A stretch of DNA of 53,534 nt from Catajapyx aquilonaris (Eukaryota): assembly GCA_000934665.2 (NCBI GenBank), contig JYFJ02002632.1:1-53534 (forward strand). The letters are read 5' to 3'. The position numbers and the translations under genes are program-made. Below, piece after piece: positions 11,001 to 41,000 of the stretch (position 1 is its first letter; the number at the start of each line of letters is the position of its first letter). The notes under the pieces were generated by a model that saw only the letters and a list, made by a program, of their open reading frames with translations, was not told the origin of the DNA and ran no database searches.

Positions 11001-14000
11001 ATTGACGTCATGCATACAACATGGCTACCGTTTTAGGCATAAAAAGATTTAGATCATATAGAGTCTTTTAGTGCCTACTACTCTTATCACGAATACACGC
11101 AGCCCATCACACTTGACACAGACCATAGCCATAACTGCTTACATCATTCTGTAGTTTAGATCTGACTGCTGATTTTGGTATGGCGTGCACCACTGCCTAA
11201 CCATCACACCATAAGAGCACGGTGGCCCTCTTGTCTCATCGCACACACGTTTTCCTCTCACCTCTATAGGTACCTTTCTGTAGAATGCATAAATCCTATT
11301 AGCTCGCTCAGTAGGGGTGAGCCACATTCTTGCCAAGGTCTTTCCGAGTAATTAATTAAGCTTATGCACATGCAGCTGGAAAGAACCACGTGCTCAAGAC
11401 CTTCCCCAATGTGTCTTCAGACTCCGACATCATCCTGCACCGAGTGACGAGAGACAAGAAGTCGCCTTCCCTCAGCAACATTACTCAGCACAAGGTAACC
11501 AGTTCTTGCAATATAGATTTACGACGCATTTGCCAGGCTAAAATAATGAAGTACGTTCCTCCAAGCCATCCTCAAGGACAGGATTGCGGATCAAAATTTT
11601 GCTCGTGAAATCAATCCATGATTGCCTCTGCCTCATGTCATATCCATGCTCTGGGTAATGAAATGATCGAAGCGGATCGAGTCTTTGAACGGTTGATGGC
11701 ATATCTGAGGTGGTTTGCAAATATAGTTTCAGGTATTTTGGAGATCTAATATCATGTGGCCATCGGAGGAACGCACTTTATTCAGGCACGATCCTTCGTA
11801 GTCAGAGTAGATATAAAACTTTTTAGAGAGGTTAAATCCATATGGTTCATAAAGATTGAAGGAATGTAGATGAACTGCGGCACGCCTTGTCTTGAGCTTA
11901 AAGCCTGCTAGCTAGCATGCGTACCTCTTTTTGCATATTTTTTGCACTTAGATTGTGTATGCAGTTTTATTCGAGCAATCCCAAGATGTCTATAAAATCA
12001 AGCAATATCTCAAAGTATTCTTTCATTGCAAGATATAGAGTTGTAAAATGATGTCTCATATATCAGCTGTTAAATTTTGGCTGTAATTCCTCCTGACACG
12101 GAATCGTCAAATGGGATATCCTACTCGGCCCATTTTGCAACTGTGCCATGCCACACTGACGCAGTAAAGCTTATCAGAAGTGCAGCTGACTATATGGAAT
12201 TTTAGGACATCTGCACACGGAACCAAGCTAGTAAACAAGACCGGTTAGTCACTCAGCCATGAAACGATAAACTTTCCGGATCACGCCATATAAAATGCTC
12301 ATGCACGGTGCCGAGTAATCCAAAATACAAGTAGGATTAACTAAGAGGACGGTGCGCTGCAGCTCAGGTTTTGTAATATTTAAAACGCCTCTCTACTGAA
12401 TTATTAGCGTCAAAGTAACAATCCCCGACGTCTGGCGGACCCAAAATTTGCGCCCACATAAAGTAAGACAGTAATGTTGTCCGAAAGAAACAGCAAAGTA
12501 GTCCCCAGTGTAACTCCTGGAATCTAATTTGAAGTCTTGATTGTGGTTGCAGCTCTCCGTCCAGGACAACGGCTCAGCCAAGTTCCGATTCCAGGGAGTC
12601 TTGCACACGCCAAACAAGCTCGGCGAGAAATTCACACAGGTCAGACACTCGTATTTTTTTCGTTGTGTTTTTTTGTTTAGATAACGACGCATATAGTGTA
12701 CCGTCCGTCTGCATGATAACGGTGGGCTCGAACTAATGTTCTGCTGGGAATGGTTAGATTAGGTGAGGCAATGTACCTGATTTCTCTGGTGCGTGGAAAA
12801 GGGATGCATCAGTCATTTTGTGCCATTCTGGAAATTGACAAACAGTGTCATATGATATGTCCAAAAAATGTAATCCATTGTGTCACACTGGATGAAGGAA
12901 TAAGGTGTCGAAAGCATGTCAAATTAAGTATTTCCACACATCACAGGATGACATTGTATGCTTTGGCTTCCGCTGCAGTATATATGCAGTGAGGCAGAAC
13001 TAACAGTGGCTGAAGACAACGATCGTAGTTTTGCATTATTTTGTGTATATGGGGGCTGGAAAAAAAACCATTGATCATCCTGCAGTATAAAACCGCACAA
13101 AATGGTGGGTGTTTCTGAGGAAATTCAGTATATGGTCTGATGTGGCGATATTGATCCTCAATAAAAGTTAGAATAAGTGACTCTCCTGCAAAATAGTATC
13201 AAAGTAAGTATCGACTTCTGGGAAGTGCTGGGTAAAGGACCATTTCCCAACTAGCAGGCGTCGCGTCGGCGCGGCGGTCACTGACCAATTAGTGGACGAA
13301 AACAAGTTTCTATCAATTGCCAAAAGTGGAGGGCGTTCAAACATAAAAGTCCTCCCAGGGTCATTTTCGCACCAAACTTTTGGCAAAAGTCTTTGCATTC
13401 CACTCTCTGATTGGGAACTTGGTTGGTACCCGCTGGACCAGCGAGAATCGTCCTTGCATACTACCCTCATGCCAAGTTGATTATGAGGGGTTCCCAAATA
13501 TCCTTTGTGAAGGACCACCTATTTTGGAGTCACTACTCAATGCAAACAACCCTTAGAATACCACCTCCCAAGAGTATTTCTAGCAATTTCTGGTCGCGTT
13601 ATTGACCGTGCTGTTTGTTGCCCTATATCTGAGCTGCGAATTACTGCACACATCCGCTTCCAGAATGATACATTCTTGGTGTTTTTAAAAGTGTCACCGC
13701 CTACCAATACAATGAGCCTGTTTGAAGTGCTTTTTATTTTTCTTTCCATGCCTGAAAACTCGATGAAATTCCTGTTTGTTACACAACCCAATCGACGCTA
13801 CATTTTTGTCGCCCATTTGCACATTTTTTCCCCTCAAGCTGCACGCCCAACACATGCATTATGCACGTCACGTGACACCTCCAAAAAAGTACCATAGGCC
13901 TAACAGAGCCCCCAAGAGACTCTGACAATATTGATCTTTCATCACAGCAGAATCCGTTATTGTAGCCTACCCAGTGAGTTTGCGTGCATATGTAATATGT

Positions 14001-38000: not shown

Positions 38001-41000
38001 TGTACTGAAAGCATCTGCTTTCTTTGACATGTAGGTGCTGTCCCTGGGCGCGGATGTCCTCCCCGAGTACCGACTTCAGTCCCCTCGTATCCACAAATGG
38101 ACAATCCTGCATTACTCGCCGTTCAAGGCAGTGTGGGACTGGATCATCCTGCTGTTGGTCATGTACACAGCCATCTTCACGCCATATGTGGCCGCCTTCC
38201 TTCTCAACAACTACGAATACAACAACAACAAGACCAAGCGATACCAGGACGACCCCATTGTCATCATCGATCTCATTGGTGAGTCTCTTGCATTTCACAA
38301 CCGACTTGTACTCTAGATCGGTACCGATATTATCCAGGTCATTGTCCTACTCGGCACAGTCGTATAGGTTCAAAGAGTGCTGCTGCAGAAGGAACTAAGA
38401 ATTTTGTCAATAATTAGCTAATTAATATGTTATGGCAGTCACTGCGCATGGTTTTTGAACATACTAATTGGAGACGTGACTCGAACTTTATGCTGCTGTT
38501 CGTGTCCCCCATACATTGAAAGCAGCGACCTGGAAAATTAATATGGCCTATAAATTTCGCCTGGCTGCTCATCTTGCATTCAGGCCGATTCTCGACTCGG
38601 GTCATTACAAACGACCTTGAAATATGTTGAGTGCACTTATCCATAGGGTATACAACAGGGGGTATAGGGAAAGAAAGTTATTACTTATAGCATGACAAAA
38701 CACTTAAAGTTGAAATGGCCTAAGTAACCTATTATCTTGCAGTGGACGTCATGTTCATCATCGACATCTTGATCAACTTCCGCACGACGTACGTGAACAG
38801 CAACGACGAAGTAGTGTCTCACCCTGGGAAGATAGCCGTTCACTACTTCAGAGGATGGTTCCTGATTGACCTGGTGGCGGCCATACCTTTTGACCTGCTG
38901 CTCATGGGCTCCAGCACCGACGAGGTATTGTCATGCATGTCTCGATCGAGGTTCGTGCCTTTTATTCTTTAAAAGAAAGGAGGCCCTGCTTCGTCACAGG
39001 GGAAGGGAAAATCTATGATTCGTTGAAGTTTCCTCCCACGTACAGATGGATTACTGTATAATGAGCGCCCCATTTTTTTGGTATATTGGCAAAGTAGACG
39101 TCACACGCCATTATTTTAGTTGAAACTGCACAACTTTGTGTCGGAAAACAAAATTTCCGCATCAGGTGATCGAAAAACGGCATCGAAGCACAGGGTGAGG
39201 CAATAGTAGTGAATTATTTTGATCCATTTGACTTCTTTGTCCGTTGAATTTGCTTAATTTTCTTTCCGTCGATATGAGGGAGTATTTTAATTTGAAGAGT
39301 ACATTTGCCTCACCCTGTAGCTGAAAGGAACTTGAACGAGTCATGATATGCTTGGAATCGCTTATATATCCTTGTAATGCAAACACTGTATGAGTACATT
39401 GGTTAGAGGCTCGACCCTCCTGCATGCGCTTGATGGTTGCTCTTTGGCCATTTTCTGCAGCAAACGACCACGTTGATCGGTCTCCTGAAGACAGCCCGAC
39501 TGCTGCGGTTAGTGAGGGTTGCACGGAAGATCGACCGGTACTCGGAATATGGAGCCGCCGTCCTGCTTCTCCTCATGGCCACCTTTGCTCTCGTCGCTCA
39601 TTGGCTCGCTTGCATCTGGTACAGTACAATACACCGTCCCATCTATATTACTTACTCGTATACTTATACACGGTGCTTGAAACGGGTGCTTTGTCCTCGC
39701 CTGATGCCATATACTATACCCATGTCTTGCTGCACACGGCCATGCCTTTGCCACCACCGCATTGTCTCTTGTAAGGGGTAATTGGCACTGTACGGACACC
39801 AGGGTAGGTTTCACATCAGAAACAAGCTGATTGGTTGAAAGGCAACCGACTGCAACAATGAAAAGTGTGATGCAACCGGGCTAAAGCCATTCCAGTTAGT
39901 AGGTTATTTTTGATGCATAAGGTCAGAAATTAATGCACATTTTCAGTTTTTTGGGAGCAAGTAGTAATGGTGATTGATTTAGCATGTCCGGGCCAGCGTA
40001 ATATCCCCACCCCCGGGCACCAAACCCTCCCTTCAGACAGGAATATACTGTACATCAATCACCCTTACAGTACAAAGAACATGTGCTCCTGATAAACTGT
40101 CATCTGCGGGGAGCCAGGAGCACTCTAGCTCTTGGACACGGTAATAAGTCAAAGGTAAATCTGCTCAGTGGAAAAAAGCTATGCAAAAACTGACAGCTAG
40201 TAGAGTATAGGAGTAGGCCGAGTGAGAGAATTTAAATTATTAAACTTTAAATTAAATATTACACGTTTTGCACCTCTGAAATCTTGAATTGCGAATCATT
40301 TCTGCAAATGGTTTAAAAAGTTGTGAGGTTAAGTGTAGCATAAATAGATTCTGAAGTATTTGTTCGTTTCTATTGTGCTAAGCCGGCACTTTTCATGTAC
40401 TGCATACGATAAAACTTTTATAATATTATGCAAACTTAGGTGGTATAGTACAATAACATTACATGAGACTTTTGATGCTCTGTTAGATTAAGAGCCGACT
40501 TTTCTGAAACAGTAGACTACCTGATGTATTCCTTGTACTGTACTCATTAGTCAATGCAAACCATATAGCGCAACATGTTATTCCATTCGTGGTGTGTAGT
40601 TATTAACAGCCTGTGGCAAATAGAAGTAGGCAGTGCAAGTGCTACAGTTTCATTAGTAATATCTACTATTGCATATTTTTAGTGTTCGTGCGCGAGTAAC
40701 ATGGCACCTCCACTCATACTGTAAACTGATGGGAAATAATATGGCGCCCTTCCGTAGTCTACATTTATACACGTAATTAAATTCACAATGGAATCACGGA
40801 AGGGCAGAAGAGTCCAACTGCACGAACCCTAATTTTTCAAGGGGGCGTTTTTGCCAATTTAGCAGATGGAATAACTGTGGGAGGTTTTTGGTCACAATAG
40901 AAAATGCATGAGGACATTTGGGCACAATTAGAAAAAGTGTCGGTGCTATTAACAGCGGGTACGCCTGATCCGCCATTTAAAGTAGCGTTTGTTTGTTTAT

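What the first reader, a model, noticed from the sequence alone, without database searches (positions are those of the whole stretch)
12640..38034. Array of alternative N-terminal exons in a 25-kb intron at the hERG1b-equivalent junction
Seen in the sequence: between the exon ending GEKFTQ (12639) and the [12 protein letters not shown] acceptor (38035) lie four mutually unrelated, GC-rich, ATG-initiated ORFs (19910-20308, 21355-21600, 30477-30773, 36372-36659). Each has a GT donor in phase 0 only 4-13 codons before its stop, the phase the shared acceptor needs. Two weaker candidates are at 15432 and 23039. Established: human KCNH2 makes the PAS-less, fast-deactivating hERG1b from an internal promoter spliced to this same exon. 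Inference: this gene could choose between one PAS-containing and four or more PAS-less N-termini, and heterotetramers could tune deactivation, trafficking and localisation combinatorially. Caveat: I searched for phase-0 donors, so there is some selection bias.
Basis: partly seen in the sequence, partly recalled or inferred. Interest (0 to 1): 0.85.

Follow-up and report, generated by a model that had tools for sequence, protein, structure and literature searches.

The report
Possible alternative first exons, ERG channel
A 25-kb intron of an arthropod ERG potassium-channel gene holds four reading frames proposed as alternative first exons: two look truly coding, one weakly resembles a known insect exon, one looks like chance, and no RNA data were available to test any of them.

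Summary
The window carries an arthropod ERG/"seizure" (KCNH2/6/7-like) K+ channel gene on the + strand. The "weaker candidate" at 23039 is not an ATG.

10 of 12 + strand ORFs of at least 80 aa have a phase-0 GT near their end. The antisense strand has more and longer ORFs (16).

Independent tests split the four:
- ORF1 (19910-20308) and ORF2 (21355-21600) show the strong GC3 codon periodicity of this gene's real exons. They rank 1 and 2 of 166 intronic ORFs.
- ORF3 (30477-30773) resembles the insect PAS-less exon that ends ...KE|VLSLGAD. A post-hoc motif test supports this, but profile searches do not.
- ORF4 (36372-36659) has no support.

No RNA run, genome or close relative was available, so splicing and transcription starts remain untested.

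PAS-less ERG N-termini joined at this junction are known in mammals (ERG1b) and annotated in ants, a wasp and lower Diptera. Worm unc-103 has several promoters.

Verdict: partly supported, and a new member of a known kind.

The parts
12550..12639 (+). Last N-linker exon of the PAS-containing isoform (...[28 protein letters not shown]), phase-0 donor CAG|gtcaga
   Evidence: tblastn to the termite isoform P0007, 71% identity; sequence read
12640..38034 (+). 25,395-base intron before the pre-S1/S1 exon. It has no Pfam-recognisable ORF, no Rfam match and no large repeat.
19910..20308 (+). ORF1: candidate alternative 5' coding exon (133 codons, donor CAG|GTACCG, phase 0). It has the best coding signature in the intron and no detectable homologue.
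   Evidence: GC1/2/3 is 0.62/0.46/0.76 against 0.55/0.41/0.76 for known CDS. Codon log-likelihood ratio 0.417 bits/codon, rank 1 of 166. GC3-GC2 z 5.14. Two open-frame peaks in the unbiased scan. 0 hits.
21355..21600 (+). ORF2: candidate alternative 5' coding exon (82 codons, very basic peptide). It has the strongest donor of the four (ACG|GTGAGT, phase 0) and an in-frame TGA two codons before the ATG.
   Evidence: GC1/2/3 is 0.59/0.37/0.71. Log-likelihood ratio 0.258, rank 2 of 166. z 4.26. Peak in the scan. Sequence read.
30477..30773 (+). ORF3: candidate first exon (99 codons, donor GAG|GTACAC, phase 0). It ends ...[35 protein letters not shown]| and may be the counterpart of the insect PAS-less exon ...KW[ST]SVR..EN..KE|VLSLGAD.
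   Evidence: BLASTP to the Culex fragment P0059 gives E 0.021, collinear to both exon ends. The composite motif is unique in the window and occurs in 0 of 1000 shuffles, but was chosen post hoc. Profile rank is only 3 of 2271, E 1.3. hhalign rank is 3 of 354. Log-likelihood ratio 0.151, rank 5 of 166.
36372..36659 (+). ORF4: open frame in a GC-rich island 1.4 kb upstream of the acceptor. It has no coding signature and is most likely a chance ORF.
   Evidence: GC1/2/3 is 0.59/0.57/0.67. Log-likelihood ratio -0.058, rank 15 of 166. Six-frame contrast -0.01. All three + frames and several - frames are open here.
38035..38278 (+). Shared acceptor exon ([12 protein letters not shown]...S1), phase-0 acceptor tgtag|GTG, donor ATTG|GTGAGT
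   Evidence: 85-87% identity to insect and Daphnia ERG
19501..21750 (.). Two GC-rich islands (GC up to 0.60) that hold ORF1 and ORF2, with a G-rich stretch at 20940-21340 between them
30001..31500 (.). GC-rich island (GC up to 0.65) that holds ORF3. It could be a promoter or 5'UTR, which was not tested.
35751..37000 (.). GC-rich island (GC up to 0.58) that holds ORF4, with an N at 36123 inside a G run

Best explanation
The gene is an arthropod ERG ('seizure') K+ channel. I think the long intron before its pre-S1 exon most likely holds one to three real alternative 5' coding exons, not four. ORF1 and ORF2 are lineage-specific coding exons. ORF3 may be the counterpart of the insect PAS-less first exon. 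ORF4 is a chance ORF in GC-rich non-coding DNA.

Inferred mechanism: transcription starts inside the intron. The alternative exon supplies an ATG and a short, probably disordered N-terminus, and its phase-0 donor joins the phase-0 acceptor at 38035. The resulting subunit lacks the PAS/eag domain. By analogy with mammalian ERG1b it would deactivate faster and could co-assemble with the PAS-containing subunit.

Shown here: gene identity, reading frames, splice-phase compatibility, and codon periodicity of ORF1 and ORF2.

Inferred, not shown: transcription starts, splicing, translation and gating effects.
For: Gene identity:
- PAS_9 scores 36.1 bits, Ion_trans 27.7 and Ion_trans_2 49.8 on exon translations.
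- There is exon-by-exon tblastn to termite and Daphnia ERG.

Coding signature:
- Known CDS (17 stretches, 904 codons) has GC1/2/3 of 0.55/0.41/0.76. ORF1 has 0.62/0.46/0.76 and ORF2 has 0.59/0.37/0.71.
- By codon log-likelihood ratio they rank 1 and 2 of 166 intronic ORFs of at least 60 aa on both strands. Their values (0.417 and 0.258 bits/codon) fall within the leave-one-out range of known exons (0.05-0.69).
- Their GC3-GC2 z-scores are 5.14 and 4.26, against a mean of 0.15 and SD of 1.17 over all 166 ORFs.
- An unbiased 60-codon scan of the whole + strand gave 14 peaks: 8 on known exons, 3 on ORF1/ORF2, and 3 others of which two hold internal stops and one starts just before a third, unclaimed ORF.
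- The GC-rich islands around ORF3 and ORF4 lack this periodicity, so it is not a by-product of GC content.

Splice sites:
- The candidate donors (GTACCG, GTGAGT, GTACAC) resemble the gene's real donors, several of which are GTAC...
- Acceptor-like sites at the ORF starts have pyrimidine fractions of 0.55, 0.50 and 0.30. The 13 real acceptors average 0.67 (minimum 0.50) and the background is 0.48. This mildly favours first exons over cassette exons.

Precedent at the same junction:
- 7 of 118 listed arthropod proteins with the junction motif have a PAS-less N-terminus ending KE|VLSLGAD.
- 8 nematoceran proteins have the same.
- 3 of 80 environmental loci are cDNA-like PAS-less ERGs with unrelated N-termini joined at VLSLG.

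ORF3:
- BLASTP to the mosquito exon gives E 0.021 and ends at both exon ends.
- The motif W[ST].V..EN..KE|GT occurs once in the window and in 0 of 1000 shuffles.
Against: No transcript evidence of any kind was available.

ORF length and a phase-0 GT carry no weight.

ORF1 has no homologue. 0 of 1301 word-sharing candidates scored E<=10, and there were 0 hits among 1.84 billion representatives. ORF2 and ORF3 got nothing usable from the protein atlas. None of the four has a Pfam match above cut-off.

The codon model was trained on only 904 codons of this one gene. In the composition-controlled six-frame contrast, ORF1 (0.28) and ORF2 (0.22) are ranks 1 and 3 of 28, with an antisense ORF (36098-36466, 0.25) between them.

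Part of ORF1's periodicity lies in imperfect triplet repeats (GCC/ACC, AAC/GAC), although its non-repetitive first half alone has GC3-GC2 of 0.37.

ORF3's likeness to the insect exon is not significant by profile HMM (2.3 bits with 7 sequences; 6.5 bits, E 1.3, rank 3 of 2271 with 10 sequences). It is also not significant by hhalign (rank 3 of 354). It misses two residues that are invariant in all 10 insect sequences (S and R of W[ST]SVR). The motif test was designed after seeing ORF3.

An out-of-frame ATG lies 5 bases upstream of ORF1's ATG.
Confidence: 0.5

Rival explanations
1. All four ORFs are chance open frames in GC-rich, stop-poor non-coding islands (enhancers, promoters of non-coding transcripts, or neutral DNA). 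No alternative coding exon exists in this intron.
For: The antisense strand has more ORFs of at least 80 aa (16 against 12) and the longest ones in three of the four islands. Several frames are open at each island. A phase-0 GT is expected in about 63% of ORFs. No homologue was found for any ORF. ORF4 and largely ORF3 lack codon periodicity.
Against: ORF1 and ORF2 are clear outliers in codon-position GC (z 5.14 and 4.26, the top 2 of 166) and in codon log-likelihood ratio. In the whole-window scan they behave like known exons. The chance that two of four pre-chosen ORFs take ranks 1 and 2 of 166 is about 4e-4, which is my own arithmetic.
Confidence: 0.2
2. ORF1, ORF2 or both are real coding exons of the ERG gene but not independent first exons. 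One option is in-frame cassette exons inserted into the N-linker of the PAS-containing isoform: 19883-20308 and 21385-21600 are both phase 0 at each end. The other is consecutive exons of a single alternative 5' region.
For: A phase-0 AG sits exactly at the start of ORF1's open frame (tcctag|CAC, 19883) and another inside ORF2 (ccag|AGA, 21385). Insect ERG genes have many N-linker splice variants: 86 of 118 junction-bearing listed proteins end the N-terminal part in NMGEKVAQ and 12 in ...DSIKHK. An Ooceraea gene model (P0057) places a long upstream N-terminal region in front of the PAS-less exon in one protein.
Against: The candidate acceptors have pyrimidine fractions of 0.55 and 0.50, which is at the background level (0.48) and at or near the bottom of the 13 real acceptors (mean 0.67, minimum 0.50). 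Both ORFs begin with an ATG within 9 codons of an upstream in-frame stop, as expected of first coding exons.
Confidence: 0.15
3. ORF1 and ORF2 belong to one or two small, lineage-specific genes nested in the intron on the same strand and are not spliced to the channel exons.
For: They have a coding signature but no similarity to any ERG N-terminus or to any protein. Each also ends in a stop a few codons after the proposed donor, so each could stand alone as a 137-aa or 86-aa ORF.
Against: Both have a donor-like GT in the one phase that fits the channel acceptor, and ORF2's is a consensus GTGAGT, although this is weak evidence. Their codon bias matches the host gene's. No further coding-like exon was seen nearby.
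Confidence: 0.1

Closest known systems
Mammalian ERG1b (KCNH2 1b transcript)
   Same: A transcription start in the intron before the pre-S1 exon. A single unique exon replaces all PAS/N-linker exons and gives a PAS-less, fast-deactivating subunit that co-assembles with ERG1a (passages of PMC9113952). The window has the same intron position and the same phase-0 splice logic.
   Different: Mammals have one such exon in that intron (ERG1c starts elsewhere). Here up to three candidates exist, none with transcript evidence, and none is similar in sequence to the others. That human exon 6 begins at VLSLGADV is my recollection and was not checked here.
C. elegans unc-103 (ERG) with several promoters and first exons
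   Same: One ERG gene driven from several promoters with different tissue patterns. I saw 'unc-103 1E promoter' and 'unc-103E, unc-103F promoters' in passages of PMC2432499. That there are about six alternative first exons is recalled from Reiner et al. 2006, which I did not see.
   Different: The worm channel has lost the eag/PAS domain altogether (passage of PMC9989356 citing Martinson 2014). Its isoforms therefore do not switch between PAS and PAS-less forms.
Predicted PAS-less ERG isoforms of insects (ants, a braconid wasp, mosquitoes, a midge, sandflies)
   Same: An N-terminal exon ending ...KE is joined directly to [12 protein letters not shown], and these proteins have no PAS Pfam domain. 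ORF3 shares K-W-[ST]-x-V, EN and the terminal GKE followed by GT.
   Different: ORF3's similarity is not significant by profile methods. ORF1 and ORF2 have no insect counterpart. The insect proteins are database gene models, and I saw no functional study of them.
Drosophila seizure (sei)
   Same: It is the orthologous gene family. The fly channel lacks the eag domain (PMC9989356 passage), as would the products proposed here.
   Different: In the fly the domain is reported as lost from the gene. Here the PAS exons are present, so a PAS-less form would be an isoform choice. The sei paper I opened (PMC6687100) has 0 occurrences of 'isoform' or 'PAS'.

Membership tests
KCNH / ERG (Kv11) voltage-gated K+ channel gene | N-terminal PAS (eag) domain exon | tested here: met
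   window:1844-2074 scores PF13426 PAS_9 at 36.1 bits (cut-off 27). It is 66% identical to termite ERG.
KCNH / ERG (Kv11) voltage-gated K+ channel gene | S1-S6 voltage-sensor and pore exons, and a C-terminal cyclic-nucleotide-binding homology domain | tested here: met
   Ion_trans scores 27.7 bits and Ion_trans_2 scores 49.8 bits. cNMP_binding is split over two exons (20.2 and 17.7 bits, each below the 27.5 cut-off). tblastn is collinear to ERG at 72-89% in the core exons. The best database hits are arthropod KCNH2/6/7 'seizure/unc-103' proteins.
ERG1b-type internal-promoter PAS-less isoform | A unique ATG-bearing exon inside the intron before the pre-S1 exon, with a donor in the acceptor's phase | tested here: met
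   All four ORFs meet this, but so do 10 of 12 + strand ORFs of at least 80 aa, so it is not diagnostic.
ERG1b-type internal-promoter PAS-less isoform | The exon is really coding (codon usage and periodicity like the host gene) | tested here: inconclusive
   Met for ORF1 and ORF2. Equivocal for ORF3. Not met for ORF4.
ERG1b-type internal-promoter PAS-less isoform | Its own transcription start, and spliced junction to the shared exon | not testable with these tools
   No RNA holder was listed, so read laying could not be used. No genome is held.
ERG1b-type internal-promoter PAS-less isoform | Faster deactivation and co-assembly with the PAS-containing subunit | not testable with these tools
   This needs electrophysiology. 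It is inferred from mammalian ERG1b only (PMC9113952 passages).
Insect PAS-less ERG exon (...[KR]W[ST]SVR...EN...KE|VLSLGAD) | Significant profile match to the exon alignment | tested here: not met
   ORF3 scores 6.5 bits, E 1.3, rank 3 of 2271 six-frame ORFs. hhalign rank is 3 of 354. The earlier 7-sequence profile gave 2.3 bits.
Insect PAS-less ERG exon (...[KR]W[ST]SVR...EN...KE|VLSLGAD) | Conserved landmarks in order, and an exon end KE followed by a splice donor in phase 0 | tested here: inconclusive
   ORF3 has KWTGV, EN and GKE|GT. This combination is unique in the window and occurs in 0 of 1000 shuffles. However, the S and R that are invariant in all 10 insect sequences are G and T in ORF3, and the motif was relaxed after seeing ORF3. 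BLASTP to P0059 gives E 0.021.

The most novel reading that the evidence does not exclude
This arthropod ERG gene runs three independent internal promoters in one intron. Each gives a different PAS-less N-terminus: two lineage-specific (ORF1, ORF2) and one (ORF3) orthologous to the insect ...KE exon. In that case the PAS-less isoform would predate the split between this lineage and insects. The reported 'loss' of the eag domain in flies would be the end point of an old isoform choice, and mixed tetramers could be tuned from several N-termini.
Probability: 0.12. Interest if true: 0.55.

Novelty: new member of a known kind. Interest (0 to 1): 0.3.

Why it matters
PAS-less subunits set how fast ERG channels close, and in mammals the 1a/1b ratio shapes cardiac and neuronal excitability. 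If ORF1-ORF3 are real, an arthropod would have more N-terminal choices at this junction than mammals. ORF3 would also link the insect PAS-less exon to a more distant lineage. That would bear on how fly ERG came to lack the eag domain.

As it stands, the result is mainly a caution. An ATG-ORF with an in-phase GT inside a GC-rich intronic island is expected by chance. Codon periodicity separated plausible candidates from implausible ones.

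Tried and rejected

Homology searches:
- ORF1 against longer proteins found none of 1301 candidates at E<=10.
- ORF1 by phmmer against 1.84 billion representatives found 0 hits.
- The protein atlas gave no usable hit for ORF3. 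For ORF2 the best score was 0.81, to bacterial hypotheticals, which is in the noise range.
- Pfam on 106 intronic ORFs of at least 75 aa gave nothing above cut-off (one Kazal_3 match at 17.9 bits, below 26.2).
- Pfam on the four ORFs gave nothing above cut-off (ORF2 to L31 at 16.1 bits, below 22).
- tblastn of the N-termini of the listed arthropod proteins against the window gave hits at E<=1 on known N-terminal exons. In the intron it gave nothing better than E 0.27, and nothing at the four ORFs.

Non-coding and repeat searches: Rfam gave 0 matches on the whole window. No transposon-like repeats were found.

Metagenome scan with the S1 exon: 80 loci, best identity 85%, so no close relative. 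The insect PAS-less exon was not found in their flanks (0 hits at E<=1e-3; best profile E 2.2).

A resemblance seen by eye: ORF1 ([14 protein letters not shown]), Ooceraea P0057 (DIRLLHDLVEDLSK) and L019 (DVKVINDLIEDLTK). BLASTP does not support it, so I rejected it as evidence.

A 36-codon six-frame contrast scan was dominated by stop codons in AT-rich DNA and did not even rank most known exons. I discarded it.

Pairwise BLASTP of ORF1, ORF2 and ORF3 against P0057, and of ORF3 against P0035, gave nothing significant.

Literature: four searches turned up no paper on PAS-less ERG isoforms in arthropods. These searches were not exhaustive. Martinson 2014 is not held.

Full report
WHAT THE WINDOW IS

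The + strand carries most of an ERG-type (KCNH2/6/7, Drosophila 'seizure', worm unc-103) voltage-gated K+ channel gene.
- tblastn with termite (P0007) and Daphnia (P0006) proteins maps a PAS exon at 1844-2074. N-linker exons lie at about 5429, 6920, 11360 and 12550-12639.
- After a 25,395-base intron come the pre-S1/S1 exon at 38035-38278 and the rest of the channel, down to about 50227.
- Exon translations hit PAS_9 (36.1 bits), Ion_trans (27.7), Ion_trans_2 (49.8) and cNMP_binding.
- The S1 exon is at best 87% identical to anything among 3138 matching proteins. All but one of the 120 listed are arthropod: insects and Daphnia.
- So the organism is an arthropod without a close relative in the libraries.
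- The exon encoding the N-terminal cap (MPVRRGHV...) is not in the window, because the alignment starts at residue 26.

THE OBSERVATION

- The donor after GEKFTQ is at 12639 and the acceptor is at 38035.
- There are four ATG-initiated ORFs, each with a GT at a codon boundary 4, 4, 9 and 13 codons before its stop.
- ORF GC is 0.56-0.61 in a 0.456 window.
- The four do not resemble one another.
- The 15432 mini-ORF exists. 23039 is not an ATG: it follows a T12GGCAG acceptor-like site.

IS IT MORE THAN CHANCE?

- The intron's + strand has 12 ATG-ORFs of at least 80 aa, and 10 of them have a phase-0 GT in the last 15 codons.
- The antisense strand has 16 such ORFs, 6 of them with a GT. They include a 151-aa ORF over ORF3, a 137-aa ORF over ORF2 and a 127-aa ORF over ORF1.
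- With GT at 6% of positions, about 63% of ORFs should have such a site.
- In each GC-rich island several frames on both strands are open. Long ORFs there are what stop-poor DNA gives.

AN INDEPENDENT TEST: CODON PERIODICITY

This gene's confirmed coding stretches (17 stretches, 904 codons) have a marked third-position GC bias: GC1/2/3 = 0.55/0.41/0.76.

| ORF | GC1/2/3 | Log-likelihood ratio, bits/codon, and rank of 166 | Six-frame contrast |
|---|---|---|---|
| ORF1 | 0.62/0.46/0.76 | 0.417, rank 1 | 0.31 |
| ORF2 | 0.59/0.37/0.71 | 0.258, rank 2 | 0.25 |
| ORF3 | 0.52/0.62/0.64 | 0.151, rank 5 | 0.14 |
| ORF4 | 0.59/0.57/0.67 | -0.058, rank 15 | -0.01 |

- The ranks are among 166 intronic stop-to-stop ORFs of at least 60 aa on both strands. 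The model is a codon log-likelihood ratio against intronic background.
- Known exons scored leave-one-out give 0.05-0.69, and all 17 are positive.
- GC3-GC2 z-scores are 5.14 (ORF1) and 4.26 (ORF2). Over all 166 ORFs the mean is 0.15 and the SD 1.17. The third value is ORF1's own antisense shadow.
- A scan of the whole + strand in 60-codon windows, blind to ORFs, gave 14 peaks. Eight fall on known exons and three on ORF1/ORF2. Of the other three, two hold internal stops and one starts just before a third, unclaimed ORF (33429-33680).
- The six-frame contrast compares the same bases read in all six frames, so composition cancels. 15 of 17 known exons are positive.
- Among 28 ATG-ORFs, ORF1 and ORF2 rank 1 and 3, with an antisense ORF at 36098-36466 in between. 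The signal is therefore good but not overwhelming.
- Part of ORF1's second half is imperfect triplet repeat. Its non-repetitive first half alone has GC3-GC2 of 0.37.

I conclude that ORF1 and ORF2 probably are coding, ORF3 cannot be judged this way, and ORF4 shows nothing.

HOMOLOGY

- ORF1 has no relative: none among 1301 word-sharing longer proteins, and none in 1.84 billion representatives by phmmer.
- No Pfam family matches any of the four above cut-off.
- The atlas was uninformative.
- Such N-termini are short, probably disordered and fast-evolving, so this neither supports nor excludes them.

The database did show that PAS-less N-termini joined exactly at VLSLGAD are common.
- Ants, a braconid wasp, Culex and Anopheles have an exon ending ...KE|VLSLGAD (7 of 118 junction-bearing proteins; sequences).
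- A follow-up search found 8 nematoceran proteins (Anopheles, Polypedilum, Lutzomyia, Sergentomyia), all without a PAS domain.
- Ants also have a third class of N-termini, MPHYLL.../MSCDAE..., which join further upstream.
- A metagenome scan returned 80 loci. Three of them (L019, L024, L032) carry uninterrupted 763-1021-aa ORFs across what are many exons here, so they are cDNA-like. They encode PAS-less ERGs with three further, unrelated N-termini joined at the same point.

ORF3 AND THE INSECT EXON

ORF3 ends ...[39 protein letters not shown]|gt. Mosquitoes have ...QEKWSSVRLSSDSKKNQIKVENH...EKGALGKE|, and ants have ...QRWSSVRVKGGSTKSLLLENGGPQ..KGALRKE|.

For the link:
- BLASTP against the Culex fragment gives E 0.021 for that single comparison. 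The alignment is collinear and runs to the exon end in both.
- A composite of landmarks (W[ST].V, EN 8-22 residues on, then KE followed by GT, with no stop) occurs once in the whole window on either strand, at ORF3. It occurs in none of 1000 block-wise dinucleotide shuffles of the intron.

Against the link:
- Profile HMMs give 2.3 bits (7 sequences) and 6.5 bits, E 1.3, rank 3 of 2271 (10 sequences).
- hhalign ranks ORF3 third of 354, at 17.2 against a top score of 17.6.
- ORF3 lacks the S and R that are invariant in all ten insect sequences.
- I fixed the motif after seeing ORF3.

I rate orthology at about even odds.

FIRST EXON, CASSETTE EXON OR NESTED GENE?

- All splice phases are 0, so ORF1 (from an AG at 19881-82) and ORF2 (from 21385) could also be in-frame cassette exons.
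- The candidate acceptors have pyrimidine fractions of 0.55, 0.50 and, for ORF3, 0.30. The 13 real acceptors average 0.67 (minimum 0.50) and all intronic AGs average 0.48. This mildly favours first exons.
- The candidate donors fall within the range of this gene's real donors, several of which are GTAC...
- A separate nested orphan gene cannot be excluded.

WHAT IS KNOWN

- ERG1b starts in intron 5 of KCNH2. One unique exon replaces exons 1-5, giving a PAS-less, fast-gating subunit that co-assembles with ERG1a. ERG1c is a third start (passages of PMC9113952).
- Worm unc-103 is driven from several named promoters (passages of PMC2432499). The count of first exons is recalled from Reiner et al. 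2006, which I did not see.
- Fly and worm ERG are reported to have lost the eag domain (passage of PMC9989356 citing Martinson 2014).
- The Drosophila sei paper I opened does not mention isoforms.

Several N-termini at this junction are thus a known kind of arrangement, and it is annotated in insects. What would be new here is the number of candidates and the lineage.

WHAT COULD NOT BE DONE

No RNA run was listed, no genome is held, and there is no relative closer than 87%.

VERDICT

- Two of the four ORFs are credible coding exons, one is possible and one is unlikely.
- It is a new member of a known kind, of modest interest.

Noticed in passing
L019:53-3058, L024:472-2760 (approx.), L032:49-3111 (approx.): Three environmental contigs carry uninterrupted 1001-, 763- and 1021-aa ORFs encoding PAS-less ERG channels. 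Their unrelated N-termini join exactly at VLSLG. They look like mRNA-derived sequences from other animals.
   Followed up: partly
window:24390-24458: Perfect 34-nt inverted repeat with one base between the arms, giving a 69-nt hairpin. It does not extend further, and there is no Rfam match. It could be a fold-back assembly artefact or a small hairpin element.
   Followed up: partly
window:23022-23038: T12GGCAG, a very strong acceptor-like site (pyrimidine fraction 0.80) in mid-intron. Read in phase 0, the frame after it closes after 22 codons with no phase-0 GT.
   Followed up: partly
window:36098-36466 (- strand): A 123-aa antisense ORF overlapping the start of ORF4 has a six-frame codon contrast of 0.25, as high as ORF2's, but no GC3 periodicity (GC1/2/3 of 0.65/0.54/0.65).
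   Followed up: no
window:33429-33680 (+ strand): An 84-codon open frame (ATG-ORF 33432-33683) has GC3-GC2 z of 2.95, fourth of 166, and contains a phase-0 AGG|GTGAGT at 33662. Its GC is low (0.48/0.33/0.56).
   Followed up: no
window:35349-35423; 15189-15218; 36123: An (ATT)25 microsatellite. A 30-base C run containing an N. A second N inside a G run just upstream of ORF4. These are spots of uncertain assembly.
   Followed up: no
P0057, P0072, P0084, P0089, P0090, P0103, P0105, P0108 (ant proteins): Ant ERG gene models show at least three classes of N-terminus: PAS-containing, PAS-less joined upstream of the linker exons (MPHYLL.../MSCDAE...), and PAS-less joined at VLSLGAD. All 8 nematoceran Diptera hits are PAS-less.
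   Followed up: partly
window:19985-20050; P0057 residues 68-82; L019:395-439: An amphipathic motif seen by eye, D-h-x-h-h-x-x-h-h-x-D-L-[ST] (h = hydrophobic), appears in ORF1, in an Ooceraea ERG N-terminal extension and in L019's N-terminus. BLASTP does not support it.
   Followed up: yes
window:1-1843: The exon encoding the N-terminal cap (MPVRRGHV...) is not found in the window. The alignment to full-length ERG starts at residue 26, at the PAS exon.
   Followed up: no
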